Assembly: GCA_016176285.1 (NCBI GenBank)
Contig: JACOXM010000001.1
Location: forward strand, 5,812-69,811
Direction: 5' to 3'
Length of the DNA stretch: 64,000 bases
DNA from: Candidatus Giovannonibacteria bacterium
GTDB taxonomy: Bacteria > Patescibacteriota > Minisyncoccia > JACPKW01 > UBA11713
The notes under the pieces were generated by a model that was not told the DNA's origin, did not search any database, and worked only from the letters and a program-made list of their open reading frames with translations. Below are positions 3,516 to 62,428 of the stretch, one piece after another (position 1 is the first letter of the stretch; each line of letters opens with the position of its first letter). The position numbers and the translations under genes were made by a program.

Positions 3516-3619
3516 TTTTGCGCTATTTTATCCACAGTTTTATAAGCTTTTTTAAAATATACTAAATATAAGATGAAACTAATCTTAAAGGTCGTTTTTT
3601 GTAGAAATATTTATTTCAA

Positions 3620-47436: not shown

Positions 47437-48392
47437 ATTACTTTCTTTTTTAAAAAATAGATTGGAAAGTATCTTGCGTCAGGATAATCATCTGCACATT
47501 TTTTTTCTTGGATTTTAAAAAAAGGTAATATTGTTTCTTCAAATTCATTCTCAGTCTGGCTTATATAATCCAAATCATAACGAGATCTCTTTATGAAAGC
47601 CTGGAGCGTCCTTCTCAAGATTATTCTTTCTCCTTCTTCTCTGGTCTGATAGTTGGCGAGAATTTCTGCTATTTTTTTTGGACTTGAGGTTTGAGCTTGA
47701 TTATCTCTAAATCCATCACGAAGACGATATAGAAAAGCAAAAAAATTTTCGGAAGAGTAATTTGAGGACATACCCATTAACGCATTATCTACTGTTTTTT
47801 GCGGAGTTTCATCGCTAATGGCGGTGTTAATAATATGGTTTCGAAGTGAAAACGTACCGTCATTTGCAAGTAAGAGTGAAATTTTCTCAAGGAATTTTTC
47901 TTGATTTTTCCTAGGCAGTTGGGTGAATACTAGATCACCGATAATAAAATCAAAATAGTTTTCTTTAAGCGGCAGATCCGTCCATTCTGATTTTATCCAA
48001 ATTTCATTTTCTTGTTTGGCTTTCGAAGCCAATAAAAGTCCACTTTCTATCATAGGAAAAGAAAAATCAGCCACTGTGTAATTTTTTATTTTCGTATCAT
48101 CGAGTAAGTCGCGAATTAACGGTGTCGAACCTAATACCAGCACTTTATTTGGCGGAGATGATAAAATAAATTCACGCCAGATTGAAATAACTTTTTGAGA
48201 GGGACTCGCGGGGGGAGGTATTAGTTTTCTGGATTCGGGCAAGGATTGCGCGTCCCATAATTTTATCATTTTGCGTTTATGCATTTCAGCTTGTCCTGAT
48301 TCTGATTCAATAATGAAATTATGTATTTCAGAAATAGTTCTCGCGTCTAAGGTCTTGATTATTTTTTTTAATATGGATGCGATTAAATTCAT
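47433..48392 (-). CDS. Hypothetical protein, possibly a SAM-dependent methyltransferase-like fold
   Basis: 319 aa. VLVLGSTPLIRDLL and FDFIIGDLVF resemble degenerate MTase motifs I and II. Confidence 0.35.
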   Translation of the reverse strand: MNLIASILKKIIKTLDARTISEIHNFIIESESGQAEMHKRKMIKLWDAQSLPESRKLIPPPASPSQKVISIWREFILSSPPNKVLVLGSTPLIRDLLDDTKIKNYTVADFSFPMIESGLLLASKAKQENEIWIKSEWTDLPLKENYFDFIIGDLVFTQLPRKNQEKFLEKISLLLANDGTFSLRNHIINTAISDETPQKTVDNALMGMSSNYSSENFFAFLYRLRDGFRDNQAQTSSPKKIAEILANYQTREEGERIILRRTLQAFIKRSRYDLDYISQTENEFEETILPFFKIQEKKCADDYPDARYFPIYFLKKKVI

Positions 48393-49783
48393 TTGTTATT
48401 CTAATAAACATGAATAATCAGGATGTATTGATTTCAATGGATGATGCGTTGCCGCCAACCTTGAATTCCTTTAATTTAGCAGGGAATGAATCTTTTTTAA
48501 ACTGGCTTCTGCCCATTGTTGAATCACTAAGGGAAACTGAATATTGGAATAAAGATCATATAGCAAAAATCCAATCCGCTCGTCTAGAAAAGTTATTCCT
48601 GCAATTATCTGGAAATTCCTCTTTTTGGGATAATCATTTCCGACAACATGATGTCAAGCCGAATGCCTCCTCGCCGATCGATGAACTTAAAAAACTGCCG
48701 ATTATAAACAGAGATTGGTTTTTGGCAAAAAAAAATACTTTTGTAATTTCTCCCAATATAAGAGAAGGTTCTTTAAGATATTTCTCTACTAGCGGAACTA
48801 CCGGGAAAGTCCTTGCTGGAGCATTTACACACGGGGAAATTATCGTAAGTTATCTTCCATATTTTTTCAGGCATAGAGTTTTTAATTCAATTGGGGAATT
48901 TATTTCCAGAAAATTTTTTCTTGGGATCGGCAGAGTTCTTACGGAGCAATATAGCTCTCTCGGAGATTCATTTATACTGGATCATTTTGCTTCACTCGAA
49001 AAAAAAGAGATTAGAAACGAGCTGTATAAAAAAATTAAGTCGATATCTCCCGCGATGCTTTGGGCCTACCCAACGACACTTTTAGAATTTGCGACATATT
49101 ATAGGGATGATAATATTCAACTGCCATTATTGGCGGTTCGTACTGGCGGCGAGTATGTTACTAAAAGCCAAAAAGATTTTATTAAAGTTGCGCTTGGGAC
49201 GGAATATATTGATCATTACAGTGCGCGAGAAATCGGGAGCATTGGAACGTCGTGTGATAAAAATCCTACAGAAGGATTTTATCACATAGATCGAGAAAGG
49301 CTTATAGTTGAAGTTTTGGACGATGATGGAGGGGAAGTACCGGGGAATACGGAAGGAAATATAATTATAACGGTCCTTGACCGGACAACATTTCCCTTAA
49401 TTCGATATGCGCTTGGTGATCGAGGTAAAATAGTTTCTTGTGTATGCGGCCGTACTGACGCGCTGATATTTGCGGGAAGAGTTGGGGAATATATTTTGTT
49501 GCCGAGTGGTAAGCGTTTCAGTGTTCTGCAATTTCGGACAATCATTGCGAACTTGGTAAGTTTCCGAAATATTAGAAATTTCCGAATTGTACAAGAATCT
49601 TTAGATACGTTATCAGTTAGTATTTTCTTTAATTACGAACCTTCTTCCAACCAGATCGATTTGTTCGAGAAAATTTTATCCAAAACTCTTTATGATGAAA
49701 TAAAAGTTTCTATTAAAAAAGTTGACGCTGGTTTTTTTAAGGCGGGCAAAAGCAAAGTGTTTGAGAATTTAAAAAGGGGCTGA
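48377..49783 (+). CDS. Adenylate-forming enzyme, phenylacetate-CoA ligase / coenzyme F390 synthetase (PaaK/CapK-like) family, copy 1
   Basis: FSTSGTTGKVLAG AMP-binding motif. WAYPTTLLEF. IRYALGDRGKI...CGR zinc-like motif shared with copy 2. Start may be the ATG at ~48410. Confidence 0.65.
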   Translation: MRLNSFVILINMNNQDVLISMDDALPPTLNSFNLAGNESFLNWLLPIVESLRETEYWNKDHIAKIQSARLEKLFLQLSGNSSFWDNHFRQHDVKPNASSPIDELKKLPIINRDWFLAKKNTFVISPNIREGSLRYFSTSGTTGKVLAGAFTHGEIIVSYLPYFFRHRVFNSIGEFISRKFFLGIGRVLTEQYSSLGDSFILDHFASLEKKEIRNELYKKIKSISPAMLWAYPTTLLEFATYYRDDNIQLPLLAVRTGGEYVTKSQKDFIKVALGTEYIDHYSAREIGSIGTSCDKNPTEGFYHIDRERLIVEVLDDDGGEVPGNTEGNIIITVLDRTTFPLIRYALGDRGKIVSCVCGRTDALIFAGRVGEYILLPSGKRFSVLQFRTIIANLVSFRNIRNFRIVQESLDTLSVSIFFNYEPSSNQIDLFEKILSKTLYDEIKVSIKKVDAGFFKAGKSKVFENLKRG

Positions 49784-49821
49784 CTTTGCCAGCCCCTTTT
49801 TTGGAACCTTTTATGTTTCGG

Positions 49822-50460: not shown

Positions 50461-50535
50461 AACTACCTCCTAGTGTTTTATACCATAAAAAACTATTTTT
50501 TCAAGCAAAGATCTATAATGTTATAGTATTTTATT

Positions 50536-51801
50536 ATGTATAGACGAAATCCAAACGATTGGCTTATATCCCCTGAACGGTTTTTTGGCAACGATATTCG
50601 TTTTGGAAATTTGCTTGGCAATAAAAGCTTCATCGAGTCATTGATAGAGTATTCTCGTATAGTAAAAGAGTTTCAATTCTGGAAAAAGGAAAAAATTGAG
50701 GAAATCCAAAATACACGGCTAAACAATCTATTAGAATCTATTAATAAAAAATACGAAGGGGGCAATATTATAACAATTCATTCAAGTGGTACATCGGGAA
50801 TACAAAAAAAGATTCTTATAGACGAGAGGGAGGGGATTATTTCCTGGTTCCCTTGCCGCTTAACCAACCCTGCATTTAATTTTGATGAAAAACTAATAAA
50901 AAATATTTTTAATAGAAAATTTGTGATTTGTCTTGGCGGCAGTACAAGGGTATGGTTAAAAGATTTTATGTATTTACTGCGAACAACTCCAGTTGATCTT
51001 ATTGATAAAATTAACCGCGAACTGATATACGAAAAAATTAACGAGGTTCACCCAGCTTTTGTAATCGGCCCAGGCTCATCCGTTTCTGCTTTGGCAAGAA
51101 AAATGGATGAAGATGGGTTTGATTTATCGCACTTACTTGCATTGGAATTAACTACGGAGCCAATATTATCGGAAGAGAAATCCTTTATAAATAATTTAAA
51201 AATCCCTCTATTGAATACATTTTCTTCTGCGGAAGCCGGACCGATAGGCTTTGAATGCCCTAATAATCCGGAACGGTTTCATTTGTTTGCCCAAAGAATG
51301 ATGCTAGAGGTTATAAATGAAAATGGATTGCCAGCTAGGGATGGAGATGAAGGTGAATTAGTCATAACAGTATTAGACCGAAGGGTGATGCCGATCATTC
51401 GCTACGCGCTGGGTGATAGAGGAAAAATTATTTCTGATAGCTGTCCCTGCGGGAGGTCACTTCCATTATTTGAGTTGAGTAGCCGTCGAGGCGATAAATT
51501 AAAATTATCAAGTGGCAGGGAAGTGCCAAGTTCGCTTCTGTATATGAGTTTAAAAAGGGCGGAAATAGGTAAAGTGGCAAGGGCTTTTCAGATTCGCCAG
51601 AATGCAGTGGATCAAATTGAACTTCTTATTGTTCCGTCCCGAAAAAAAAGGGCGAGGATTACGGAGGAAACTGAGTTGAAATTCCGTCTTGCTCTAACGG
51701 AATTTTTCTACAACGAGCGGATGCTTATAGAAGTGAGAAAAGTGGATGCAATCCCGGTTTCATCTTCGGGTAAAACTTTATTTTTTGTACCACTTCAATG
51801 A
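50536..51801 (+). CDS. PaaK/F390-synthetase-like adenylate-forming enzyme, copy 2
   Basis: HSSGTSGIQKK motif. ELVITVLDRRVMPIIRYALGDRGKIISDSCPCGR parallels copy 1. Confidence 0.65.
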   Translation: MYRRNPNDWLISPERFFGNDIRFGNLLGNKSFIESLIEYSRIVKEFQFWKKEKIEEIQNTRLNNLLESINKKYEGGNIITIHSSGTSGIQKKILIDEREGIISWFPCRLTNPAFNFDEKLIKNIFNRKFVICLGGSTRVWLKDFMYLLRTTPVDLIDKINRELIYEKINEVHPAFVIGPGSSVSALARKMDEDGFDLSHLLALELTTEPILSEEKSFINNLKIPLLNTFSSAEAGPIGFECPNNPERFHLFAQRMMLEVINENGLPARDGDEGELVITVLDRRVMPIIRYALGDRGKIISDSCPCGRSLPLFELSSRRGDKLKLSSGREVPSSLLYMSLKRAEIGKVARAFQIRQNAVDQIELLIVPSRKKRARITEETELKFRLALTEFFYNERMLIEVRKVDAIPVSSSGKTLFFVPLQ

Positions 51802-53058
51802 CGCGAAAAATTCATCGATTATTTTTTTTGTTATGTGCGGCATGAAGATAATTGTATAAAATAGTTTTTTTTCTCCGTCGTGTAAAAGCCAGCAGGGTTT
51901 TAAACCAAATCTTTTTTCGGTTTGGGGATCGAGTTGAGAATTTTTCAATTTGTTAATATGAAATGCCAAAATATTAATCGACGGATGTGTAATAAATATA
52001 AAAGGCGGCAAATATTCGTTTGCCATAGAAGCCTCTATAAAATATTTTTTTAAATTTAGTTCCGATTCAACTATTTTCTTAAAGCCAGACTTTCCTAATA
52101 GCATTATTATACTCCAACAACCCGCGGCTATTGCCGCGGGTCTGGAGCCAGAAAGGGTGTTGTCTTTGCCGAGCCCCAAATACGGAACCGGCCGCTCTAT
52201 AAAATTTTGCAGTCCCTTCCTGCATAAAAAGACACCGGCATTATGTGGAACGAGCCCGGTCTTATGCATATCGAGTGAAATTGACTGCAAAGATGAATAT
52301 CTGAAGTCTAAAATTTTTTCAGAAACAAAAGGATAAACAAGGCCGCCAATCGCTGCATCCATATGAACGTAAGTTTTTATTTTTAGTTTCGATTGGAAAT
52401 CATTTATTACCGCATCGATTTCGTTTAACGGATCTACCGTTCCAGTGCCGCTGTAACCAAGCGTTAACGCGATTAAAAAATTATTATATCCTTCTTGATA
52501 AAGGAGCTTGATTGTTTCTTTTAATTTTTCACCATCCATCCCATACTCGGTATCACAAGGAACGTCAACGACTTTATTTATATTGAGAAGATCTGCGGCT
52601 TTCTCGATTGAGTAATGTGTGAGAGGAGTTTTTAATAAACATAGTTTTCCTCCGTTTTCCTGAAGCATATTTCTACCAATCCAAAGTCCTGTTATATTTC
52701 CTTCCGTTCCCCCCTGAGTTAAATATCCATCTCCTTTTTCCAATCCAAAAAGATTCGAAAGCATTGAAATAACCTCAGCCTCTAGATATTGAAGCCCGCT
52801 AGCATATTCATTACTGGTATGAGTTCCAATATTATTCCTGTTAAACGGCAGAAATTTCGTTATTGCTTCAATTGCTAAGGGATGCGGATCGGTGCTGTAA
52901 ATCCTTAACCCACGCATTGAATACGGCTTCATTTTTTTTGCGAAATTTTCAAGAATATCAAGGATATTTTCTTTCGAGGCGCCCGTTTCTGGAAAATTTT
53001 TGAAAGCCATAATAATCAATAATATATAATATTTTGATACAATAGGATATGCACCCAT
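51778..53058 (-). CDS. Group II pyridoxal-phosphate-dependent decarboxylase (GadB/MfnA-like)
   Basis: 426 aa. PLP-lysine motif SLDMHKTGL. ITGLWIGRN, HMDAAIGG and DPHPLA... blocks typical of the family. Confidence 0.75.
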   Translation of the reverse strand: MGAYPIVSKYYILLIIMAFKNFPETGASKENILDILENFAKKMKPYSMRGLRIYSTDPHPLAIEAITKFLPFNRNNIGTHTSNEYASGLQYLEAEVISMLSNLFGLEKGDGYLTQGGTEGNITGLWIGRNMLQENGGKLCLLKTPLTHYSIEKAADLLNINKVVDVPCDTEYGMDGEKLKETIKLLYQEGYNNFLIALTLGYSGTGTVDPLNEIDAVINDFQSKLKIKTYVHMDAAIGGLVYPFVSEKILDFRYSSLQSISLDMHKTGLVPHNAGVFLCRKGLQNFIERPVPYLGLGKDNTLSGSRPAAIAAGCWSIIMLLGKSGFKKIVESELNLKKYFIEASMANEYLPPFIFITHPSINILAFHINKLKNSQLDPQTEKRFGLKPCWLLHDGEKKLFYTIIFMPHITKKIIDEFFASLKWYKK

Positions 53059-53762
53059 TTTTTGAATTTTTCAATCAAAACCGGCCATATATATCAAAAG
53101 ATTCCTTGGAGTGGCCTTCTTCCTGGAAGATTGTTGACTATAAAACGTATCCGCGCTTGCCGCAAATAGCACTGCCGAAACCAAATTTAAGGGATGCTAG
53201 CTTAGAAAGCGCGATTATAAATCGAAAATCCGAACGAGAATTTTCTGGAGATTCGATAAGTTTATCAGAACTTTCAGCTTTGCTTTTTTTTGGAGCGGGC
53301 ATTGTTAAAAATGGAGAAAATAATTTTTTTCACAGAAGATCCCATCCGTCCGGAGGGGCAAGGTTTCCAATAGAAACTTATTTTGCGGCTTTAAATGTCG
53401 ACGGACTTAAAAATGGTATTTACCACTACAATGTGTTAAATCATGCCGCAGAGTTTTTACTTGATGCGGATAGAGATATTATTGGCAAACTTTCAGTTTA
53501 TGAATTTGTAAAAAAAGCTGCGCTGGTTATTATTTTTACAATGATACCTGAACGTTCTTCGAGAAAATATGGAAATTTTGCTTTGAAGGTTGGCTTAATC
53601 GAAGCCGGGCATATTGCAGAAAATATGTACTTAGTGGCTTCCGCGTTGAAATTGAAAGGAAGCGCAGTGGGGAATATAAGTGACAACGGCGTCGTAGAGA
53701 AATTACTTGATATAGATAATTCAAGCGAAATCGCTTTTTACATGCTTGCCTATGGAAAATAA
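53049..53762 (+). CDS. SagB-type (McbC-like) FMN dehydrogenase
   Basis: INRKSEREFSGDSISLSELSALL and HPSGGARFPIETY match the RRSxRxF...PSAGALYP signature of the SagB/ThcOx family. Confidence 0.8.
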   Translation: MHPFFEFFNQNRPYISKDSLEWPSSWKIVDYKTYPRLPQIALPKPNLRDASLESAIINRKSEREFSGDSISLSELSALLFFGAGIVKNGENNFFHRRSHPSGGARFPIETYFAALNVDGLKNGIYHYNVLNHAAEFLLDADRDIIGKLSVYEFVKKAALVIIFTMIPERSSRKYGNFALKVGLIEAGHIAENMYLVASALKLKGSAVGNISDNGVVEKLLDIDNSSEIAFYMLAYGK

Positions 53763-55284
53763 ACATAAATCTCATGAATCTACTGTTGAATTAGGTCCGG
53801 TTACCAGGGCCAGGCAGTGGATTTCGGGTTTGTTGGATGGCGGTTTGTCAACGACGGAAAAAATTATCGCAAAGATTTCTATACTTTTTTTGGAATTTTT
53901 AGAAGAAATTTTTGGTCAAAGTTTTTATGTTAAATCCAAATTTGAAAATGATTTTTTTACTTTACCAAATTCAAAAATAGCGAATTTAGCTGCGAGCCTA
54001 AAAAAAGATGGATTTATTAAATCTTTGAATATTCGCCGTACTTTTCCGGATGAACCTCGCGCGATTTTAGCGTGGGCTGATTTTGGAGAATTAATTTTAA
54101 AATCAGATACTAGTGCTTCAAGGTATGCTGAAGTTAACTTTTTAGGAGGGGTGGATTTTAAAAATACGGATAAAGCTGCGTTGCGCTGTTTAGGGGAAGC
54201 TGTGGAGCGCACATGCCTCGGCTTTTATAAAAAGAAAGATTTGGTTTTTGGAACATTTAAAGAGCTTAAAAACAAAGCCATTGATCCGAAGGAATTTGTC
54301 GCTTTTTCAAAGGAACAGCTTGCTTCGGAAAAATTCAGGCATTGCAGGTTCGATGATCAAACTCGCTTTGGCTGGGTTTGGGGTAGATCGTTGATTTCCG
54401 GCAAAGAAATTCTTGTTCCGGCGCAGCTTGCTTATGTTCCTTATAAATATGAAAAAGGAGAGCCGGTAATCCGCAATACTATTAGTACTGGGGCGGCGGC
54501 ATACACTGATTATTATGAAACTATTTACCGGGCAACTTGCGAGGTTATTGAAAGGGACGCTTTCATTATTCACTACTTAAATAAACTCGCCCCGCCTGTT
54601 TTGGATTTAGAAAACTTTCACGATAAAGAACTACAGGAAATAAACGCTAAATTCAAAAGATACAATTTGGAATTATATGTGCTTGACGTGACAACGGATA
54701 TCCCTGCGCCAACTTACGTTAGTTTGATTATAGATAGAACCGGCGTCGGGCCAGCGGTTACAGTATCAAATAAAACCGATCTAAATATTAAGAAAGCAAT
54801 CAAGGGCTCAATAGAGGGATGCCTACGTATATATTCGGGGTATAGGTGGAAAATGGAAAAATTACTTGACGTTAATAAAATTCCTGAAAAATGGGAACAA
54901 ATTGAAAGTTTGTCGGACAGATGTTTTTTTTGGGGGCAGGCGAAGATGCTCCCGGAGATAGAATTTTTCATCAAGGGGCCGAAGAAAATGATAAATGCTG
55001 AATTGTTAGATCTTGGTAGCAGGGAAAGACTTGATTTAGTCCTTGAATATTTTAAGAAAAATAACATGGAAGTTATTGCCGTTGATCTAACCATCCCTGA
55101 GGCGAGAAAAAATGGATTTTATGTTTCTAAGGTTTTAATTCCGAAGCTTCAGCCGCTGCATTTGTCGGAAAGGCACCGTTACTTTGGGGGTGAGCGGTTA
55201 TATCAGCTTCCCATAAAATTGAATTATTTAAAGCAACCATTGCGAGAGGAAGAATTAAATCAAATACCACAACCTTTTGCATAA
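53746..55284 (+). CDS. YcaO-domain cyclodehydratase
   Basis: LGEAVERTC and ISTGAAAYTDYYETIYRATCEVIERDAF are canonical YcaO motifs. 512 aa. Confidence 0.85.
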   Translation: MPMENKHKSHESTVELGPVTRARQWISGLLDGGLSTTEKIIAKISILFLEFLEEIFGQSFYVKSKFENDFFTLPNSKIANLAASLKKDGFIKSLNIRRTFPDEPRAILAWADFGELILKSDTSASRYAEVNFLGGVDFKNTDKAALRCLGEAVERTCLGFYKKKDLVFGTFKELKNKAIDPKEFVAFSKEQLASEKFRHCRFDDQTRFGWVWGRSLISGKEILVPAQLAYVPYKYEKGEPVIRNTISTGAAAYTDYYETIYRATCEVIERDAFIIHYLNKLAPPVLDLENFHDKELQEINAKFKRYNLELYVLDVTTDIPAPTYVSLIIDRTGVGPAVTVSNKTDLNIKKAIKGSIEGCLRIYSGYRWKMEKLLDVNKIPEKWEQIESLSDRCFFWGQAKMLPEIEFFIKGPKKMINAELLDLGSRERLDLVLEYFKKNNMEVIAVDLTIPEARKNGFYVSKVLIPKLQPLHLSERHRYFGGERLYQLPIKLNYLKQPLREEELNQIPQPFA

Positions 55285-55312
55285 GAAGAGATCATTGTAT
55301 AATTAATTATAT

Positions 55313-55642
55313 ATGGCAAGGGCGACGAAGGTTATTACATTATCTAAAAAAATATCTTTGGTTTTGCTTCTCCTGCCGCTTATGTTTTTTGTCGTTATTG
55401 CAAAAGCCTTTTTAAAATTTGGCGGAATGAAATCTTTAAGCTCTTTAAATAATGATCATATTATAAATAAGGCTAATGCTGATGTCGGCGGCGATTGTGC
55501 TAGTAGCTGTGACTCCGGCAATGAAAACAGTGCCAGCGGTTGTGATTCCAGTGGTACCGGTAGTGGCGATTGCGGCACTGGCGGCTGTGGTGGAGATAGT
55601 GGAGATACCGGAGGAGACAGTGGCGGGGATAGTGGAAAGTGA
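55313..55642 (+). CDS. Candidate TOMM/RiPP precursor peptide with Gly/Ser/Cys/Asp-rich core (alternative start ATG 55427 gives a 71 aa peptide)
   Basis: C-terminus DCASSCDSGNENSASGCDSSGTGSGDCGTGGCGGDSGDTGGDSGGDSGK preceded by a leader ending VGG. Lies immediately downstream of ycaO. Confidence 0.5.
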   Translation: MARATKVITLSKKISLVLLLLPLMFFVVIAKAFLKFGGMKSLSSLNNDHIINKANADVGGDCASSCDSGNENSASGCDSSGTGSGDCGTGGCGGDSGDTGGDSGGDSGK

Positions 55643-55649
55643 TAAATTT

Positions 55650-56771
55650 ATGAAAAAACAATATATTTATCTGGCGATTGGCTTAGCGGTTTTTGTTCTC
55701 GTAGTCATTTATTTTTTTATTCCCAGGGAAAATGCTGTAGATGTTTTTAATAAGGAGTATAAGGAAGCGTTAAAATCCTTGTATGCCGAAAAAAATAATG
55801 AAGTTTTTTCAAAAATAGAAAAATTAATTGGCAGCGCCCCAACACCAGAGGCCGAAGCGAAAGCAAAAATTTTAACAGCTTTTGCTTCGAACGACAATAG
55901 CAAATCCATATCTTTATTTAAGGAAGTCGCAGGGGATTCTACATACCCATCTTTTCTCCGAGCCGATGCGGCGGCTGCTATGGCTGATTTTTTTATGTTA
56001 GGGTCGCATGGATCTAGCACGCTTGCCTCACAAATTTTTTCAAGTGAACCATACGTTTCCTTTGCAATTACCAAGTCAGGCAGAAAAAATTATTCTTTGG
56101 GCGCTCGAAAATTATATGAATATGCATCTTCCATTTATGTGATTCCGTGGGCAGAATATCGCATTGCCGAATGGTACCTAAAGAATGCCATCCTTTCGAA
56201 GTTGTATAAAATTAAGACCGTGGATACGGATGAAAATTATACGACAAAAGCTGAAGCACATATTCTAAAGGGGGATTTGGCTCTGGAAAAGTATAATAGG
56301 GAAGGAGGAATAAAATTATATTCTGGATACGCGAACTGGATTAAGGGTTTTGACCAAGCAATGCTTTGGGAACTGAAGGGGCAAGAAGTCAATAGAAATG
56401 AGGCCGAAACTATGTTTAAAGCTGCGCTTAATGATTTGGATGACGGGAAGTTTGGAAAATTTGCGATTGGTCAAAAAATTTGGGCAAATTTTCAGTATTC
56501 TTCGTTTGTAGCCAGGACATATGGAGTGAACAGAAAGGACGATATATTAAAACTTAATTCTTATGTCACGACGGACAGTCACAGATATGTTGATGAGGAA
56601 AAAAAACTGCTTTACGGTTTACATAAATATATGTTTCGTCTTGGATCAATTGCAGTTACTAACATTCAGGAAAGGTACGATTATGAAAGTGCAAAGGTAA
56701 TTGCGAGAGTTGATCCCAACTTCAGAGATTATCTGAGGCAGCTCGGCTGGAAAGATGAAGTTTTTAAGTAA
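55650..56771 (+). CDS. Hypothetical membrane-anchored protein (373 aa from ATG 55650)
   Basis: MKKQYIYLAIGLAVFVLVVIYFFIP TM anchor. The ORF-track start at 55476 overlaps the precursor in another frame and is unlikely. Confidence 0.4.
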   Translation: MKKQYIYLAIGLAVFVLVVIYFFIPRENAVDVFNKEYKEALKSLYAEKNNEVFSKIEKLIGSAPTPEAEAKAKILTAFASNDNSKSISLFKEVAGDSTYPSFLRADAAAAMADFFMLGSHGSSTLASQIFSSEPYVSFAITKSGRKNYSLGARKLYEYASSIYVIPWAEYRIAEWYLKNAILSKLYKIKTVDTDENYTTKAEAHILKGDLALEKYNREGGIKLYSGYANWIKGFDQAMLWELKGQEVNRNEAETMFKAALNDLDDGKFGKFAIGQKIWANFQYSSFVARTYGVNRKDDILKLNSYVTTDSHRYVDEEKKLLYGLHKYMFRLGSIAVTNIQERYDYESAKVIARVDPNFRDYLRQLGWKDEVFK

Positions 56772-56923
56772 TCCGTGAAAGGACGCGACATTTTTATTGC
56801 AATTGTCGCTTTTTTATTATTTTCGTTCTTTTTTTTGAAAACGATTTAGCCAAGCTGGCTTGGGGAAAATATCACAATCCTAAAATTGCTCTAATTCTTG
56901 ATAGATCGGATGTAAAGCTTGCG

Positions 56924-57565
56924 ATGCAAATCGGCAATTTTTATTTTAACGGCGGCGCTTACGATTTAGATATAGCCGAGAAAGGATTCAAAAAAGCTCT
57001 TGAAATAGATTCTAAAATATTGTGGGGGCATTATCAGATGGCTCGTGTTTACTTTGTAAAAGGGGAGAGAGCTAGGGCGCTTGATGAAATAAATAAGGAA
57101 TTTGAAGCAGTGCCGCAGAATTTTCGCGCTTATTATGTGCGTGCTTTGATACATGCTTATGACAAAAATTTTAGCGAATCGGAAATGGATTTTCGCAGTT
57201 TTTTAGTTTGGGCTCCGAAGGAATGGGCGGGATATAATGATCTTGCGTGGGTTTTAGCCGAACAGAAGAAATATAAAAAAGCGAAAGAGGTGTTAGAAAC
57301 TGCATTTCGTGAAGTTCAACAAGCTAATCAAAATCCTTGGCTCTGGAATTCTCTGGGCGTTACCCAATTAAATTTAAAGGAGTATGGGAGTGCGGTAACT
57401 TCTTTTAATAGAGCTCAGAAGTATGCCTCAAAGCTAACTTTAATGGAGTGGGCAAGAGCTTATCCCGGAAATAATCCAAATGAGCTTGAATCCGGACTTG
57501 CGGTCTTCCGCGCCGCCATCAATGAAAATTTAGAGCGAGCTGTTGATAATTCATCTGGGATTTGA
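56924..57565 (+). CDS. TPR-repeat protein (N-terminus probably extends upstream; see frameshift note)
   Basis: Repeated A..A...Y..A TPR helices. The in-frame region upstream to 56768 plus a GTG-initiated TM ORF at 56775 suggest a longer gene. Confidence 0.6.
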   Translation: MQIGNFYFNGGAYDLDIAEKGFKKALEIDSKILWGHYQMARVYFVKGERARALDEINKEFEAVPQNFRAYYVRALIHAYDKNFSESEMDFRSFLVWAPKEWAGYNDLAWVLAEQKKYKKAKEVLETAFREVQQANQNPWLWNSLGVTQLNLKEYGSAVTSFNRAQKYASKLTLMEWARAYPGNNPNELESGLAVFRAAINENLERAVDNSSGI

Positions 57566-57596
57566 CAGTTAAAAGAGCTATTCTGGAGGTATCTTT

Positions 57597-58748
57597 ATGA
57601 GTGAAAAAAAGAAATATTTTCTCTCTAGTTGTATTTTAACGGCATCATTGATTGTTTCTTTTTCTATGGTGCAGCAAGGCAGTTCTGTGAGTAATGCTTT
57701 CTGGGGGGAATCAAAGTGGATTGAGAGCGTTGGCGGCGGGTTGATTGCTCCCGCATGTGGATCTTCAACTATCGGCATTACTTGCGTTGCAAACACACCC
57801 AGCATAGATTTTACATGGATTGCGGATGATATGGATTTTTCCGCAGGGGATAGCGTCGTTATATCTATCAACGGTGTAGGTGTTATTGCGAGCGGACTTC
57901 CAGCTTCTGGCGTTTTTACTTGGGGAGGAGCTTCTTCTAATTCTACATACACTTATGAAATTCGATATAAGTCAGTTGAGTTTGGAGACAATCATCTCTT
58001 AAAATCTGAATCATTCTCAACGCCAAATTGCAATCCCGATCCCATAGGATGGCATGATGCTTCGAGCTGTGCTGATACGCATGGCTGGACGTGCGATCCC
58101 AGTAATTACAGCCAGCCCATTGACGTGCATTTCTATGCTGATGGCCCCGCGGGGTCAGGAACATTCTTGGGATCTGTAACGACTGGCCAATCGCGTCCCG
58201 ATGTTCCCGCGGCCGGATTTTGCGATGGAAACGCAAATGTCGGTTATTCATTTGCGACCCCTAATTCATTAAAGGACGGTCTTAACCATACGATTTATAC
58301 TTACGCAATTAACACTCCTGCCGGAAATAATCCTCTTTTACAAGGAAGTCCGAGGACGATTAATTGCCCGGCGCCCCCAGTGACCCCGGATTATATTCTC
58401 AACGCTGATCCGAATGGAATTTTTGCAAATATAAGCAGTTCGGGGCCTTCAATTTCAAGTAAAACAAAAATAACAGTCGGACCCATAAATGGTTTTGATA
58501 AAAAAGTTGATCTTTCTAGCAATGTTGCTTCGGTTATTTCCGGAGCGGGTGGGGTTTTTACTCCAAAGGATCGGTTGAATAAAAATGAATATTCCGATGG
58601 AACATTTTTCTACGTTTCAGTTCCTCCTGGAACTGCAGCGGGGAGCTATAATATTACAATTCAGGGGGACGACGGAATATTATCCCCGAGGTCAGTTTCA
58701 GTCATTTTAAATGTGGAGCTATTGGATTCGACTTTCAAGGAAGAATAG
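57597..58748 (+). CDS. Large secreted hypothetical protein with C-terminal ...FKEE domain
   Basis: GGAGGT Shine-Dalgarno. Signal-anchor. C-terminal ~100 aa domain paralogous to the end of the 60110-62407 protein. Confidence 0.45.
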   Translation: MSEKKKYFLSSCILTASLIVSFSMVQQGSSVSNAFWGESKWIESVGGGLIAPACGSSTIGITCVANTPSIDFTWIADDMDFSAGDSVVISINGVGVIASGLPASGVFTWGGASSNSTYTYEIRYKSVEFGDNHLLKSESFSTPNCNPDPIGWHDASSCADTHGWTCDPSNYSQPIDVHFYADGPAGSGTFLGSVTTGQSRPDVPAAGFCDGNANVGYSFATPNSLKDGLNHTIYTYAINTPAGNNPLLQGSPRTINCPAPPVTPDYILNADPNGIFANISSSGPSISSKTKITVGPINGFDKKVDLSSNVASVISGAGGVFTPKDRLNKNEYSDGTFFYVSVPPGTAAGSYNITIQGDDGILSPRSVSVILNVELLDSTFKEE

Positions 58749-58761
58749 TTATAATCAAGAT

Positions 58762-60141
58762 ATGAGGCTGCCTTCGGTGTTTTATATTTCTGCAGTATTT
58801 TTTTTATTGTTCTCGCCTTCAATATCCAAATCCCAGACAGATGGTGCGGAAGAAAGCTGCTTTGATTATTATAAATTCCAGTCGGTTACTATAGATCTTC
58901 ATACGGATAAGTCCGCATATAAAGCAGGAGAAGGGGCAAAATTTGTGGGGTCTGTTACCAATACTAATAGTTACCCTCTTGTCGGAGGTTCTTTGATTTT
59001 GCGCGTGAGTAAATTTGACCCTCGTTCAAACGTAGGTAATGACATTATTGACGAATGGACAGCAATCGATGATATAAATTTGCTCGCTGGAGAGAAAAAA
59101 TCTGTTGAAATTCCATATCAGCTTTCTTCAGGTCTTTCGACGGGCACATATGTTTTGACATCTTATTTTGTAACGCAGGGTAAATTCAATCTTGCCGGGC
59201 TTTCTTTTTCGGATGATATTCACGGAGGATACGCAAATTTTTCAGTTGAAGGAAAAAGCGAGAAGACGGTAAAATTTGACAGGAATGGCGTGAAAATAAA
59301 TAACGAGCCTTATCGTATCTTCGGCCTTATTCCAAGATTTTTCACGGAAGATGCTAAAGCTCTGAAAATTTCAGTTCCTCTAAAAAACGAAACCGCCTCA
59401 GATTTGAGCGCGTCCATTGAATATTCTCTTTATTACTGGGACGCGGCGAACAAAAAAAATCTAGTAAAAGAATGGACAAGCGCGGTCGAGATTAAAAAAA
59501 ATTCGTCAAAAGAGCTTTTTGCCGATATTGATGTTGTGGAGAAAACCGTCTATTTCTTGAAAATTAAGGCTACCTTTGGAGATAAAATTTCGGAAATTCA
59601 TGTCAGAATTGCTAAAATCGGTTTCAGGCCCAGGCTTAATTTTATTGGAGTGAACCAGTTTCCATTAACCGGCGAGGAAGGCGCTAGGATGTTCGTTTGT
59701 TATCACAATACAACCGAGCTTTCGGATCCTGCGGCACGTCGTACATTGCAAAGAGATTCTAATGGCAAGATTATTCCTCCAGCATCAGAGACGCGAAACG
59801 GCAAACTCGAACTTATGCTTAAAAATTTTTCGGGCAGAGTTTTATCCAATGCAGTTTTTGAAGGGGGAATTTCCGGCGACGTGGAAGTTTTCGCGAAAGA
59901 TTTGAAAAATCGTTTGGATAATTTTGTAATTTCGGCAAAGCTTTATGATGACAAAGGAAATGTCGTAGATGAAGCGGACGTAGTTTATGATTGTTCAAAA
60001 TTCAGTGAAAATATATGTTCCGAGACTTCGATAAACTATTATTATTTTGGTGCGGGATTTTTGATTTTGGTACTGGCTGTTTATTTGGCCACAGTGCATT
60101 ACAAGAGAAATGAAAAAATTAATGAACCTGCGAAGACATAA
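58762..60141 (+). CDS. Secreted hypothetical protein with signal peptide and C-terminal TM anchor
   Basis: MRLPSVFYISAVFFLLFSPSISKSQ signal peptide. C-terminal YYYFGAGFLILVLAVYLATVHYKRNEK. Confidence 0.45.
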   Translation: MRLPSVFYISAVFFLLFSPSISKSQTDGAEESCFDYYKFQSVTIDLHTDKSAYKAGEGAKFVGSVTNTNSYPLVGGSLILRVSKFDPRSNVGNDIIDEWTAIDDINLLAGEKKSVEIPYQLSSGLSTGTYVLTSYFVTQGKFNLAGLSFSDDIHGGYANFSVEGKSEKTVKFDRNGVKINNEPYRIFGLIPRFFTEDAKALKISVPLKNETASDLSASIEYSLYYWDAANKKNLVKEWTSAVEIKKNSSKELFADIDVVEKTVYFLKIKATFGDKISEIHVRIAKIGFRPRLNFIGVNQFPLTGEEGARMFVCYHNTTELSDPAARRTLQRDSNGKIIPPASETRNGKLELMLKNFSGRVLSNAVFEGGISGDVEVFAKDLKNRLDNFVISAKLYDDKGNVVDEADVVYDCSKFSENICSETSINYYYFGAGFLILVLAVYLATVHYKRNEKINEPAKT

Positions 60142-62407
60142 ACACATATTTTTAAAATTTCTTTTTCTTGCTGGAATTTTCCTGCTTGCAAGTTCTTTTG
60201 AAAATAAATTTTCGGAGGAAACCAAAGCCGCATCAACTCCGGGCCAGCAAACCAGCGGTAATATATTAGTGAGCTGGGTTAAGCCAGTTAGTACTTATTG
60301 GGGAACGCCGGTTTCAATAATGCTAGATGTTTATAGGATTAATAGCGGAAATACGACAGTTATTTATACCGGAGAAGTAAGCAGGCAATCAGGTGCGCTA
60401 GTTCAGGCATCAGATGTACTAAATCCTGGTGATGTCGTTACTTTAAAACTGATAGAAACCGCTTCATATTTTGAGACGGGTACGGTTACCGACACGCCTT
60501 CCTCGCCGTGGGTTGATAATGTCGCGCAGATGAGTCCAGATGCCCGTATGAGTTATATAGGATTTACCAATATCCCATTTTTAGATTTTAATGGAAATTT
60601 CCATACTTTTCATCACAAACAAACAGACTATGAATTTTCTCCAACAGACCGAGCATACGTTAATTTATGTCCCGTGGTCCATCAAGTCTACCTCGGAAGC
60701 CAATATGTAGATTACGCTTGTATTCGAGCCGGAGTGCATCAGCCGGCCGTTAATATCAGCCCAACAGATATGAGTTGTGGTTCTTTTGGAACGCCTACCG
60801 ATATTGCCGAAGGTGTTCGTGAACTTACTACAACTTGCACGATAGGAAATTCCTTAACAGCTTCGTTAAATTTAGACATAGCGGCTACGAAAATTTATCA
60901 GCCGGCAAACTGGGCGCCTTGGGGGATATTCAATAATCCTCCTTATTATACATTTGAGGGATATTATCTGTTTTCCGAGCAGCCGGTTGCGGCCGCCACT
61001 CTATCTTGGACTTTTGATGTTGCTTCAGTGCCGCCTCCGCCGACTTTAACTTTTACCGGAAGTCCAACCACGATCAATCAAGGGCAGAGTTCTATACTTG
61101 AATGGTCAACGACAAATGTTAATCCGAACGGATGCACTAAATCCAATGGGTGGACAGGGGCAGGTGTTTCGGAAAATGGGTCGGAGATTGTTTCGCCATT
61201 ATCGACAACGACATATCATCTTGATTGTTCGGGCCCAGGTGGAACCACGAGCGGGGAAGTTAGAATTACTGTTAACCCGCCGCCATTGCCTTCTTGTCCG
61301 CTTTTGCCGCAGGTTGGAAGGACGATTAAAGATTTTACTCCATACAACAAGGTTAGATCCTGTGATTCGACCCAGAGCTGGTGTTTGATAAATCCAAGCG
61401 ATTCATTTACTCTTAGTCCTCCTTTGCCTGCGGGTTTCTACAACGTAACCCTTGTATCCTATGATCAACATTCAATTTACGGAGGAGAGAATCAGCCGAA
61501 AGAACAATATTATTTGAAATTATTTAATTCATTAGGCTCGCTTGTAGCGCAAACTAATTCCACTTTGGATATTCCCCAAACATCTGATTACAACGATTAT
61601 AATAATTCCGCCAACAATACTTTTAATCTCAATATTCCCCAAGCTATCTCATCGGTCGAGGCCTGGCATTCGGCTTATGTTGATAACGATGATCTTAACG
61701 GCAGTCCGCATAGTATTTACCCTGTTTGCGCGTCATTCGAACCAGTGGTTGCTCCCTTATCAGTTTCCTGTTCAGCAAGTCCCAGCACAATCAACACCGG
61801 AGAATCAACCACTTGGACTGCGACAGTAACAGGGGGCGCCGGGAGTCCTACTTTTTCATGGTCCGGAACCAATGGATTATCTGGTACAAGCCAAACAGTT
61901 ATAAAAACATATAATTCCGCAGGAACTAAAAATGCAGAGGTCAGGGTAACTTCGGGAACCGAAATTGAGACTGCGTCATGTTCATTAACAGTTAATACGC
62001 CACAACCTGATTACAATATTCTTTCCTCGCCTTCTTCGATGTTTGTCAATATAAAAGGATCCGGAGGGAATGCTAACTCCAGCAAGATAAAAATTACTAT
62101 TGACCCGAATGTAAATCCGTTAATAAGTTTTTCAAAAAAAATTGATCTTTCGTTGGAAAGCATCATTTCCAACATTACTGGCCTGCCATTGGCTGGCGTT
62201 AGCCCAAATTTTTCCCCCAATAACAGTTTGACTTCGTCGGAATATTCAACCGGTGCTGATTTCTGGCTTACGGTTCCAAGCAATGCTGAACCTGGAGTTT
62301 ACACGGTAAACATTAAGGGCGAAAATCCTGACCTGCCCCCGCGTTATAATCAACAGTTAATAACTTTAAGTATTGATATACTTGAACCGAACTTTAAAGA
62401 GGAGTAG
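60110..62407 (+). CDS. Large secreted protein with repeated Ig/PKD-like domains and C-terminal ...FKEE domain
   Basis: 765 aa. Signal peptide. Two ~80 aa repeats (SPTTINQGQS...W..T...SC.LTVN). C-terminal domain ending LEPNFKEE. Confidence 0.45.
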   Translation: MKKLMNLRRHKHIFLKFLFLAGIFLLASSFENKFSEETKAASTPGQQTSGNILVSWVKPVSTYWGTPVSIMLDVYRINSGNTTVIYTGEVSRQSGALVQASDVLNPGDVVTLKLIETASYFETGTVTDTPSSPWVDNVAQMSPDARMSYIGFTNIPFLDFNGNFHTFHHKQTDYEFSPTDRAYVNLCPVVHQVYLGSQYVDYACIRAGVHQPAVNISPTDMSCGSFGTPTDIAEGVRELTTTCTIGNSLTASLNLDIAATKIYQPANWAPWGIFNNPPYYTFEGYYLFSEQPVAAATLSWTFDVASVPPPPTLTFTGSPTTINQGQSSILEWSTTNVNPNGCTKSNGWTGAGVSENGSEIVSPLSTTTYHLDCSGPGGTTSGEVRITVNPPPLPSCPLLPQVGRTIKDFTPYNKVRSCDSTQSWCLINPSDSFTLSPPLPAGFYNVTLVSYDQHSIYGGENQPKEQYYLKLFNSLGSLVAQTNSTLDIPQTSDYNDYNNSANNTFNLNIPQAISSVEAWHSAYVDNDDLNGSPHSIYPVCASFEPVVAPLSVSCSASPSTINTGESTTWTATVTGGAGSPTFSWSGTNGLSGTSQTVIKTYNSAGTKNAEVRVTSGTEIETASCSLTVNTPQPDYNILSSPSSMFVNIKGSGGNANSSKIKITIDPNVNPLISFSKKIDLSLESIISNITGLPLAGVSPNFSPNNSLTSSEYSTGADFWLTVPSNAEPGVYTVNIKGENPDLPPRYNQQLITLSIDILEPNFKEE

Positions 62408-62428
62408 GTATGTGATAAAGTAACTCAC

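What the first reader, a model, noticed from the sequence alone, without database searches (positions are those of the whole stretch)
55313..55642. Candidate precursor peptide with microcin-B17-like Gly/Ser/Cys core
The 3' part of this ORF encodes DCASSCDSGNENSASGCDSSGTGSGDCGTGGCGGDSGDTGGDSGGDSGK. It has 5 Cys, many Ser/Thr, and Gly on both sides of the heterocyclisable residues, which is the composition of azole-forming cores such as McbA. An internal ATG at 55427 would give a 71 aa peptide, with leader MKSLSSLNNDHIINKANADVGG ending in a Gly-Gly-type cleavage site. At the DNA level the end of the core is a short tandem repeat (ggagat-agtgga-gataccgga-ggagac-agtggc-ggggat-agtgga) encoding the GDSGDTGGDSGGDSG repeats. 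The ORF-track N-terminus at 55313 is a hydrophobic segment and may not be part of the real peptide.
Basis: seen in the sequence. Interest (0 to 1): 0.8.

Follow-up and report, generated by a model that had tools for sequence, protein, structure and literature searches.

The report
Membrane-anchored azole-peptide precursor in a CPR bacterium
This unannotated 109-codon gene next to a YcaO/SagB enzyme pair in a Candidatus Giovannonibacteria genome is very probably a real precursor of a thiazole/oxazole-modified peptide, and unusually its leader starts with a conserved transmembrane helix instead of being a short soluble leader.

Summary
ORF 55313-55642 (+) encodes 109 aa with a Gly/Ser/Cys/Asp tail. 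That tail is the strongest compositional outlier of 330 six-frame ORFs in the window. It starts 29 nt after a SagD-type YcaO cyclodehydratase gene, which follows a SagB dehydrogenase gene.

Small ORFs of the same build lie beside YcaO/SagB in at least nine other CPR loci (Parcubacteria-type and Saccharibacteria).

- The N-terminal hydrophobic segment is the best-conserved part, with a basic N-terminus, a TM helix with a central Pro, and IGKxxLK.
- Met39 (ATG 55427) is not conserved.
- The Gly-Gly is present in only 2 of 10 family members.
- The conserved boundary is an A-x-A-D-V box followed by an acidic core free of Lys/Arg.

GenBank annotates a 431-aa alternative-frame ORF (MBI2023832.1) instead. 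Homology shows that the downstream gene starts at 55650.

The precursor co-occurs with a 373-aa membrane protein and a TPR protein, and in some loci with ANL ligases and a PLP decarboxylase.

LAP clusters in CPR have been reported (PMC7298704). I found no report of a transmembrane leader. My verdict is a new variant of a known kind. Chemistry, topology and cleavage remain untested.

The parts
55313..55642 (+). Precursor gene, 109 codons plus stop. Not annotated in GenBank.
   Evidence: Translation. The family profile finds homologues beside YcaO in other loci: L086 at 1e-17 and L088 at 1e-12, and P0123 at 1.5e-12 against 1.84e9 proteins. Only a Logan gene call holds it.
55313..55351 (+). Basic N-terminal segment, MARATKVITLSKK (residues 1-13, net +4).
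   Evidence: All full-length members with the A-x-A-D box have a net N-flank charge of +1 to +4.
55352..55402 (+). Transmembrane helix, ISLVLLLLPLMFFVVIA (residues 14-30), with the conserved central Pro22.
   Evidence: Mean Kyte-Doolittle hydropathy is 2.74 over 19 aa. P22, I29, K31 and K35 are invariant in alignment A1. The segment is present in all family members.
55403..55471 (+). Juxtamembrane motif (I/L-[GA]-K-x-x-L-K) and a spacer of variable length. It includes Met39, the codon at 55427.
   Evidence: Alignments A1 and A5. The distance from the helix end to the putative cut after the box's second Ala is 14-35 aa across members. L004 carries a 30-nt in-frame duplication here relative to L003.
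55472..55486 (+). Conserved A-x-A-D-V box (ANADV, residues 54-58), the proposed leader/core boundary with a cut after Ala56.
   Evidence: A56 and D57 are the only invariant columns across the 10 family members. The cut site itself is inferred.
55481..55639 (+). Proposed core, residues 57-109. It has 5 Cys, 11 Ser, 3 Thr, 18 Gly and 9 Asp, with net charge -9. It contains the conserved C-G-T-G motif and a G-D-S/T-G repeat tail.
   Evidence: Cores of all members are acidic, -1 to -15, and nearly free of Lys/Arg.
53049..53762 (+). SagB-type FMN dehydrogenase (azoline to azole).
   Evidence: TIGR03605 at 2.7e-31, above cutoff. Pfam Nitroreductase.
53746..55284 (+). YcaO cyclodehydratase, SagD family, with an unassigned N-terminal extension of about 130 aa. 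NCBI starts it at 53752 (510 aa).
   Evidence: TIGR03604 at 1.7e-80, above cutoff. The closest PDB relatives are MusD, TruD and LynD, matching the YcaO domain only. AF2 model pLDDT is 85 and Foldseek's top hit is LynD. The N-terminal 140 aa has no Pfam hit.
55650..56771 (+). 373-aa protein with an N-terminal TM helix and an all-helical remainder. It starts 7 nt after the precursor's stop and is co-conserved with the precursor.
   Evidence: Homology to the L003 394-aa protein begins at this Met. Homologues directly follow the precursor in L003, L086, L088 and L014. No Pfam or NCBIfam hit. The single-sequence AF2 model is unreliable, pLDDT 47.
56775..57565 (+). TPR protein. The ORF as listed is 56924-57565. 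The probable true start is GTG 56775, with a TM helix, joined through a 1-nt shift in the T8 run at 56829-56836.
   Evidence: TPR Pfam hits. It is 55% identical to the L003 protein. Homologues are in L014 and L087. Frameshift reasoning comes and the L087 homologue.
50536..51801 (+). PaaK/CapK-like (ANL) adenylate-forming ligase, possibly a tailoring enzyme.
   Evidence: Sub-cutoff NCBIfam hits. Homologues lie beside YcaO in L002, L003 and L088. Its role is inferred only.
48377..49783 (+). Second ANL-type ligase paralogue.
   Evidence: Weak AMP-binding hit. tblastn finds both paralogues in L088.
51778..53058 (-). PLP-dependent decarboxylase (MfnA-like).
   Evidence: PF00282 at 2e-23 and TIGR03812 at 7e-60, below cutoff. 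A 59%-identical homologue sits in the same position in L088.

Best explanation
ORF 55313-55642 is a real gene. It encodes the precursor of a linear azol(in)e-containing peptide (TOMM/LAP type) whose leader is a membrane anchor.

The 109-aa product has four parts:
- a basic N-terminus;
- one strongly hydrophobic transmembrane helix with a central proline;
- a juxtamembrane I-[GA]-K-x-x-L-K motif and a spacer of variable length that ends in a conserved A-x-A-D-V box;
- a 50-aa acidic Gly/Ser/Cys/Asp core.

Shown here: the gene is conserved in this full-length form beside YcaO (± SagB) genes in several CPR lineages. Its partners are a curated-threshold SagD-type YcaO and a SagB dehydrogenase.

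Inferred steps:
1. The cytoplasmic, ATP-dependent YcaO cyclodehydrates Cys (and possibly Ser/Thr) of the core to azolines.
2. SagB oxidises the azolines to azoles. During both steps the substrate is held at the inner face of the membrane by its own helix, or just before insertion.
3. The acidic modified tail is then moved across the membrane.
4. The tail is either kept on the cell surface or released by a cut after the small-x-small (A-x-A) motif, made by signal peptidase I or another membrane protease.

The co-conserved 373-aa membrane protein and the membrane-anchored TPR protein probably act as scaffold, export or processing partners. The ANL ligases and the PLP decarboxylase found in some loci may add further tailoring.
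For: Gene reality and frame:
- Homologous ORFs occur in L002, L003/L004, L005, L086 (P0123), L088 (two copies), L089, L014 and P0124. They share architecture and motifs: A56 and D57 are invariant, Cys77 is nearly invariant, and C-G-T-G recurs.
- P0123 scores 1.5e-12 in a 1.84-billion-protein library.
- L004 differs from L003 by an in-frame 30-nt duplication.

Context:
- SagB is followed by a YcaO gene that overlaps it by 17 nt, the precursor starts 29 nt after the YcaO stop codon, and a co-conserved membrane protein starts 7 nt after the precursor's stop.
- YcaO exceeds the TIGR03604 cutoff and SagB exceeds the TIGR03605 cutoff.
- More distant members of the same YcaO clade sit next to classical soluble Cys-rich precursors (L009, L018, L019, L020, L024, L027, L030). 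So adjacent Cys-rich peptides are the usual substrates of this clade.

TM helix:
- Mean hydropathy is 2.2-2.9 over 19 aa in 9 of the 10 members with the box (1.88 in the paralogue L088b), with basic flanks and acidic cores.

Synteny:
- The 373-aa and TPR genes are present in Parcubacteria-type loci and in a Saccharibacteria locus, where SagB lies between them.

Rival frame excluded:
- Homology of the downstream protein starts at Met 55650.
Against: - There is no chemical, transcript or proteomic evidence.
- No E1-like/Ocin-ThiF partner or recognisable RRE is present. Leader recognition is therefore unexplained, and this YcaO's activity on this peptide is an inference from adjacency.
- The A-x-A box lies 14-35 residues from the end of the helix. 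That is much farther than a canonical signal-peptidase c-region.
- A type II anchor would put the core outside the cell, away from an ATP-dependent enzyme, unless modification comes before insertion.
- L003 has no SagB nearby and only one Cys in its core.
- L087/L006 have YcaO and SagB but no such ORF next to them.
- The family is small. Only 3 called proteins exist in the two large protein libraries.
Confidence: 0.72

Rival explanations
1. A soluble 71-aa precursor is translated from ATG 55427, with the 22-aa leader MKSLSSLNNDHIINKANADVGG cut at a double-glycine site. The upstream hydrophobic codons would not be part of the peptide.
For: An in-frame ATG exists at 55427, and GG follows ADV in the window and in P0123. 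A 22-aa leader is the size of the microcin B17 leader (my own knowledge).
Against: Met39 is not conserved; the homologues have I, V or other residues there. The upstream TM segment is the most conserved region at protein level. GG is absent in 8 of 10 members. No C39 peptidase/ABC exporter is in the cluster. Neither the 71-aa product nor any relative of it is in the protein collection.
Confidence: 0.06
2. A small single-pass membrane protein with an acidic, low-complexity Gly/Ser/Asp tail that is not heterocyclised. It could be a surface-displayed or metal/cation-binding anchor, or an accessory or immunity component, with Cys residues handled by the nearby DsbA-type oxidoreductase. The YcaO/SagB pair would act on another substrate.
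For: Some members have very few Cys: L003 has 1, P0123 has 2, and L088b has a single C-terminal Cys. Their tails are dominated by G-D repeats. A DsbA-like gene lies downstream in both the window (62429-63169) and L003. L003 lacks SagB. No RRE or E1 partner was found.
Against: No other candidate precursor is in the window. The family HMM and a Cys-rich-tail scan find only this ORF. The ORF keeps its place directly beside YcaO/SagB even though the order of those two genes is swapped between loci. Related YcaOs pair with conventional Cys-rich precursors. At least one Cys is kept in every member, and Cys77 is nearly invariant.
Confidence: 0.17
3. The region is not a separate gene. It would be the 5' part of the downstream gene, as in the 431-aa ORF 55476-56771 annotated in GenBank, or its 5' UTR. 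The Gly/Ser/Cys frame would then be an off-frame artefact.
For: GenBank (MBI2023832.1) and two Logan gene calls annotate the 429/431-aa ORF. The alternative frame is open and hydrophobic.
Against: Homologues of the downstream protein in L003, L086, L088 and L014 begin at the residue aligned with Met 55650, and the 58-aa extension has no counterpart. The Gly/Ser/Cys frame is conserved as a protein family. There is no Rfam match.
Confidence: 0.03

Closest known systems
Linear azol(in)e-containing peptides (LAP/TOMM), including the LAP clusters reported in CPR genomes (Sharrar et al. 2020, PMC7298704)
   Same: A small precursor ORF lies next to a YcaO cyclodehydratase and a SagB-type 'nitroreductase' dehydrogenase, with a C-terminal core rich in Cys/Ser/Thr. 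That paper counted 110 such clusters in 93 CPR genomes (51 of them Parcubacteria), most with a nitroreductase next to YcaO.
   Different: The leader here contains a conserved transmembrane helix and an A-x-A-D-V box. That paper does not mention a transmembrane or signal segment. This cluster has no peptidase and no E1-like partner. It has conserved membrane/TPR partner genes, and in some loci ANL ligases and a PLP decarboxylase.
Microcin B17 precursor McbA and the McbBCD synthetase
   Same: Gly-rich core with Ser/Cys between glycines, and a YcaO plus FMN dehydrogenase chemistry. The McbD fold is recovered at lower rank (6gri_D and 6gos_D).
   Different: There is no sequence-family match and no McbB-like E1/zinc partner. 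McbA has a short soluble leader removed by TldD/E (my own knowledge). This core is strongly acidic (9 Asp), and the YcaO is closer to the cyanobactin heterocyclases.
Cyanobactin heterocyclases LynD/TruD/MusD (enzyme side)
   Same: They are the best sequence and structure matches of the YcaO domain: hmmsearch 6e-44 to 2e-39 and Foldseek 1.5e-25.
   Different: Those enzymes carry fused N-terminal RRE and E1-like domains of about 300-400 aa. Here only about 100-130 unassigned residues precede the YcaO domain. The precursors are unrelated.
AgrD, precursor of staphylococcal autoinducing peptides
   Same: This is a modified-peptide precursor whose N-terminal region associates with the membrane and is removed by a membrane protease after modification. 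MroQ does this for groups I and II, and signal peptidase SpsB was proposed earlier (PMC9388083). It is a functional precedent for a membrane-tethered leader.
   Different: AgrD has an amphipathic helix, not a fully hydrophobic TM helix. Its chemistry is thiolactone formation by AgrB. No AgrB or MroQ homologue was seen here. The resemblance is an analogy only.
Sec-type signal peptides / type II signal anchors
   Same: Basic n-region, hydrophobic h-region, and a small-x-small (A-x-A) motif before the mature part.
   Different: The A-x-A motif is 14-35 residues past the helix, against about 3-7 in canonical signal peptides (my own knowledge). The hydrophobic stretch is of TM length. The cargo must meet cytoplasmic enzymes first.

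Membership tests
TOMM / LAP precursor peptide | Small ORF encoded next to, and co-directional with, an azoline-forming YcaO cyclodehydratase | tested here: met
   The precursor starts 29 nt after the YcaO stop codon. YcaO scores 270.7 bits on TIGR03604 (cutoff 219). The same adjacency holds in L002, L003, L005, L014, L086 and L088.
TOMM / LAP precursor peptide | FMN-dependent SagB-type dehydrogenase in the cluster (for azoles) | tested here: met
   TIGR03605 at 108.4 bits (cutoff 78.4) for 53049-53762. It is absent near the L003 homologue.
TOMM / LAP precursor peptide | C-terminal core enriched in Cys/Ser/Thr | tested here: met
   The core has 5 Cys, 11 Ser and 3 Thr in 53 aa. It is the top compositional outlier of 330 ORFs.
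TOMM / LAP precursor peptide | E1-like (C protein) or Ocin-ThiF-like partner / RRE that binds the leader | tested here: not met
   No ThiF/E1 domain occurs in any cluster gene from 46105 to 63169. The N-terminal 140 aa of YcaO has no Pfam hit at E up to 10. A cryptic RRE in that extension cannot be excluded.
TOMM / LAP precursor peptide | Azol(in)e heterocycles in the mature product (-18/-20 Da per site) | not testable with these tools
   Needs mass spectrometry.
Microcin B17 (McbA) family | Sequence homology to McbA, or a curated family model hit | tested here: not met
   The 109-aa and 71-aa forms give 0 NCBIfam families, and the 109-aa form gives 0 Pfam families.
Microcin B17 (McbA) family | McbB-type E1-like partner and McbBCD-type synthetase | tested here: not met
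   No such gene is present. McbD ranks far below LynD/TruD/MusD in the fold search.
Double-glycine leader peptides (PCAT-exported) | Conserved GG/GA at -2/-1 of the cleavage site | tested here: not met
   GG follows the box in only 2 of 10 members.
Double-glycine leader peptides (PCAT-exported) | C39 peptidase-domain ABC transporter in the cluster | tested here: not met
   None is found among the ORFs scanned.
Sec signal peptide cleaved by signal peptidase I | Basic n-region plus hydrophobic h-region | tested here: met
   N-flank charge is +4 and the 19-aa hydropathy is 2.74.
Sec signal peptide cleaved by signal peptidase I | A-x-A at -3/-1 within a short (about 3-7 aa) c-region | tested here: inconclusive
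   A-x-A is present and conserved (8/10 have A at -3, 10/10 have A at -1). It lies 22 aa from the helix in the window and 14-35 aa across the family. No signal-peptide predictor was available.

The most novel reading that the evidence does not exclude
CPR/Patescibacteria carry a lineage-specific class of azole-modified peptides. The precursor is itself a single-pass membrane protein. The modified, strongly acidic Gly/Ser/Asp tail is exported by the general secretion route rather than by a dedicated ABC exporter. It then stays displayed on the episymbiont surface or is shed by a cut at the A-x-A-D-V box. A dedicated membrane/TPR protein pair assists, and ANL-ligase/decarboxylase tailoring may be added. 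The product would act in host attachment, cation binding or host killing.
Probability: 0.3. Interest if true: 0.8.

Novelty: new variant of a known kind. Interest (0 to 1): 0.62.

Why it matters
RiPP leaders are normally soluble recognition handles. A leader that is a conserved transmembrane helix would change where and how a YcaO enzyme meets its substrate and how the product leaves the cell. It would be a secretion solution suited to very small CPR genomes.

It also shows that standard gene callers hide these precursors. GenBank annotates an overlapping alternative-frame ORF here, and a spurious opposite-strand ORF was called in L002. Counts of CPR RiPP precursors are therefore probably underestimates.

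The leader profile (basic N-terminus, TM helix with Pro, IGKxxLK, A-x-A-D-V) is a ready handle for mining. The co-conserved membrane and TPR genes are candidates for a new processing or export module. CPR bacteria are episymbionts with few known effectors, so a surface-linked or secreted azole peptide is a concrete candidate for host interaction.

Tried and rejected
1. **Leaderless-mRNA idea.** A TATAAT box at 55298-55303 lies 9 nt before ATG 55313, and several homologues looked similar by eye. A defined scan found -10-like boxes in 4 of 12 precursors against 27 of 107 control gene starts (p = 0.38). I dropped the idea. SD-like motifs are rare in these genomes in general (14 of 107 controls), so their absence does not help to choose a start codon.
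2. **Strain comparison for dN/dS.** The two closest contigs (L133, L134) are 100% identical over the region, so they give no information.
3. **Direct protein searches with the ORF or its profile.** These returned only 3 proteins each. The family had to be recovered from six-frame ORFs of YcaO loci.
4. **Single-sequence AF2 model of the 373-aa partner.** It is unreliable (pLDDT 47), so I ran no fold search on it.
5. **Pfam at E up to 10** for the YcaO N-terminal 140 aa, the 373-aa protein and the precursor. Nothing was found.
6. **Rfam scan of 54800-56200.** It gave only a chance-level S15 leader hit (E 0.4), downstream of the ORF at 55714-55895.
7. **Literature searches** for a transmembrane or signal-type leader in YcaO/RiPP systems and for CPR YcaO work. 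These found only the general CPR LAP report.
8. **The terminator/promoter scan** gave counts at shuffle level.

Full report
**1. Observation**

ORF 55313-55642 on the + strand translates to the 109-aa sequence below:

`MARATKVITLSKKISLVLLLLPLMFFVVIAKAFLKFGGMKSLSSLNNDHIINKANADVGGDCASSCDSGNENSASGCDSSGTGSGDCGTGGCGGDSGDTGGDSGGDSGK`

- The composition is not chance. The best 48-aa window is 73% Gly/Ser/Cys/Thr, the highest of 330 six-frame ORFs of at least 60 aa in the window. Cys is about ten times the local proteome average.
- The segment is a GC peak, 57% against about 38%.
- The DNA 'tandem repeat' is marginal. TRF scores 30-36 for about two copies of a 9-bp unit.
- No Rfam family matches the region.

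**2. Context**

The window comes from a Candidatus Giovannonibacteria (CPR/Patescibacteria) contig. Upstream and co-directional lie two genes:

- A SagB-family dehydrogenase at 53049-53762. It scores above cutoff on TIGR03605.
- A 510-512-aa YcaO at 53746-55284. It passes the curated threshold of the 'thiazole/oxazole-forming peptide maturase, SagD family' model, 270.7 bits against 219.

The YcaO domain is closest in sequence and predicted fold to the cyanobactin heterocyclases MusD, TruD and LynD. It lacks their RRE/E1-like domains. About 100-130 N-terminal residues have no assignment. No ThiF/E1-like partner, TfuA, C39-ABC exporter or peptidase is present in the cluster.

The candidate ORF starts 29 nt after the YcaO stop codon. 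A 373-aa protein with an N-terminal TM helix starts 7 nt after the candidate's own stop. A TPR protein follows.

**3. Is it a gene, and which start?**

Direct searches with the ORF find almost nothing: the ORF itself, P0123, and P0124 or P0122. Fetching loci of YcaO homologues and scanning their six-frame ORFs recovered a family.

| Locus and coordinates | Notes |
|---|---|
| L002:5028-5318 | 96 aa |
| L003:7450-7647 | = P0122 |
| L004 | Cut by the contig end |
| L005:7401-> | Cut by the contig end |
| L086:63-377 | = P0123 |
| L088:6245-6541 | First copy |
| L088:7855-8121 | Paralogue |
| L089:6942-> | Cut by the contig end |
| P0124 | 86 aa, context not examined |
| L014:3084-3326 | Saccharibacteria |
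| L008 (two copies), L025 | More distant second type, Saccharibacteria and Nealsonbacteria |

All members of the first type share the same build:

- a basic N-terminus;
- a strongly hydrophobic 17-19-aa helix, with a central Pro in most members (mean Kyte-Doolittle 2.2-2.9 in all but the paralogue L088b, 1.88);
- I/L-G-K-x-x-L-K after the helix;
- a spacer of variable length;
- an A-x-A-D-[VTM] box, where Ala56 and Asp57 are the only invariant columns;
- an acidic core almost free of Lys/Arg, containing Cys/Ser/Thr/Gly, often C-G-T-G and G-D/E-S/T-G repeats.

The family therefore settles both questions:

- Met39 is not conserved.
- The 'Gly-Gly' after ADV occurs only in the window and in P0123.
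- L004 differs from L003 by a 30-nt in-frame duplication in the spacer, as expected for coding sequence.

**4. The competing frame**

GenBank annotates a 431-aa ORF (55476-56771, MBI2023832.1) that overlaps the core in another frame. It does not annotate the 109-aa ORF. Homologues of that downstream protein in L003, L086, L088 and L014 align from the Met at 55650 onward. None has the 58-aa extension. The annotated extension is an artefact of a frame poor in stop codons, and it hides the precursor. In L002 a spurious opposite-strand ORF was called instead.

**5. Conserved neighbourhood (tblastn)**

| Locus | Gene order |
|---|---|
| L088 | Two ANL/PaaK-like ligases, a PLP decarboxylase (59% identical), YcaO, SagB, precursor, 373-aa homologue. 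This mirrors the window. |
| L003 | Ligase ... YcaO, precursor, 373-aa, TPR ... DsbA-like. No SagB. |
| L014 (Saccharibacteria) | YcaO, precursor, 373-aa, SagB, TPR, then homologues of the large secreted proteins. |

The order of SagB and YcaO is swapped between the window and the other loci, but the precursor keeps its place. More distant members of this YcaO clade, in other bacteria and in DPANN archaea, sit next to conventional soluble Cys-rich precursors. That supports adjacent Cys-rich peptides as the substrates of the clade. Among 132 loci, TM-type precursors were found only beside the closest YcaO relatives. Every such locus that carries a taxonomic label is CPR.

**6. Mechanism**

Shown:
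- a conserved gene for a small protein with a single predicted transmembrane helix, carrying a heterocyclisable acidic tail;
- that gene is tightly linked to an azoline-forming-type YcaO and usually to a SagB dehydrogenase.

Inferred:
- YcaO/SagB convert Cys (and perhaps Ser/Thr) to thiazol(in)es/oxazol(in)es on the cytoplasmic side. The substrate is tethered by its own helix, or is modified before insertion.
- The basic N-flank and the very acidic tail fit an N-in/C-out orientation after export.
- The conserved small-x-small motif followed by Asp is the likely leader/core boundary.

Signal peptidase I is a candidate protease. The 14-35-residue distance from the helix is not canonical, so another membrane protease, or retention on the surface, is equally possible.

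AgrD is a functional precedent. It is a membrane-associated precursor whose N-terminal helix is removed by a membrane protease after modification (PMC9388083).

How a YcaO without RRE or E1 partner recognises the leader is open. YcaOs paired with TM-type precursors have about 30-75 more N-terminal residues than those paired with soluble precursors (crude, small n). That extension is a candidate binding domain.

**7. Comparison with known systems and novelty**

By gene content and core composition this is a LAP/TOMM system. LAP clusters (YcaO plus nitroreductase plus a nearby small ORF) were already reported in CPR genomes, including 51 Parcubacteria (PMC7298704). That paper does not mention transmembrane or signal segments, and my literature searches found no description of a TM-helix leader in a YcaO system.

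It is not a member of the microcin B17 family: there is no homology, no McbB, and the leader is of a different type. It is not a double-glycine peptide either.

I rate it a new variant of a known kind:
- ordinary in its predicted core chemistry;
- unusual in leader architecture, in its partner genes, and in being systematically missed by annotation.

**8. Limits**

Everything beyond gene conservation and enzyme family assignment is inference. No expression, chemistry or topology data exist. The family is small. One close YcaO/SagB locus (L006/L087) lacks the ORF beside it. The promoter/leaderless-mRNA idea failed its control.

Noticed in passing
window 56775-56924 (T8 run at 56829-56836): The TPR gene seems to have lost its N-terminus. 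Homologues in L003 and L087 begin with a TM helix. Here a GTG at 56775 opens MKGRDIFIAIVAFLLFSFFFLKTI*, which would join the TPR frame by a 1-nt shift in a run of eight T. This is either an assembly error or a real frameshift.
   Followed up: partly
window 55476-56771: GenBank (MBI2023832.1, HYT00_00320) and two Logan gene calls annotate a 429/431-aa ORF. Its first 58 codons overlap the precursor core in another frame. Homology supports a start at 55650, so the public annotation masks the precursor.
   Followed up: yes
window 48377-49783, 50536-51801, 51778-53058(-); L088:1-3974; L002:970-2457; L003:1608-3032: Two ANL/PaaK/CapK-like ligases and an MfnA-like PLP decarboxylase lie next to the YcaO genes in the window and in L088. 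The ligase is also present in L002 and L003. They may add tailoring, such as amine ligation to the Asp-rich tail, but this is untested.
   Followed up: partly
window 57597-58748 and 60110-62407: Two large proteins with N-terminal hydrophobic segments and no Pfam hit share a C-terminal domain ending in ...FKEE. Partial homologues follow the cluster in L003 and L014. A DsbA-like gene (62429-63169) is also syntenic with L003.
   Followed up: partly
L089:6942-7305: This family member continues past its acidic tail into GCFKAGTLVATGIIADLEFS, which resembles the start of a Hint/intein-like domain. It then runs off the contig end.
   Followed up: no
L088:7855-8121: A second precursor-like paralogue lies after the 373-aa gene. 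It has a TM helix, a VNADV box, and the core AGDAGDAGDAGDGGDGGC with a single C-terminal Cys.
   Followed up: no
L003:7450-7647 vs L004:2202-2411: Two near-identical strains differ by a 30-nt in-frame duplication (WSAIKSAKAE) in the leader spacer, just before the A-x-A-D-V box.
   Followed up: yes
L087:1-4661 and L006: A Zambryskibacteria locus has the closest YcaO (55-56% identity) and SagB, but no TM-type precursor beside them. Toxin-antitoxin-like genes sit between the TPR gene and YcaO.
   Followed up: partly
L008:4199-4570, L008:8855-9172, L025:7644-8090: A second TM-leader precursor type occurs in Saccharibacteria and Nealsonbacteria. It starts MLPxIISSLL..., has a TM helix and very Cys-rich cores (CxC, and GDCGG repeats in L025), and has a conserved C-terminal PPSVxxxxVE/Q. 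L008 carries two YcaO-SagB-precursor sets.
   Followed up: partly
L005:1226-3823: This locus encodes a second, 865-aa YcaO-domain protein upstream of the YcaO-SagB-precursor set.
   Followed up: no
window 3605-4048: This ORF has a type IV pilin-like N-terminus (MKILKNKGFTLIELLVVIAIIGILA). It was picked up as a false positive of the TM plus Cys-tail scan and looks ordinary.
   Followed up: no
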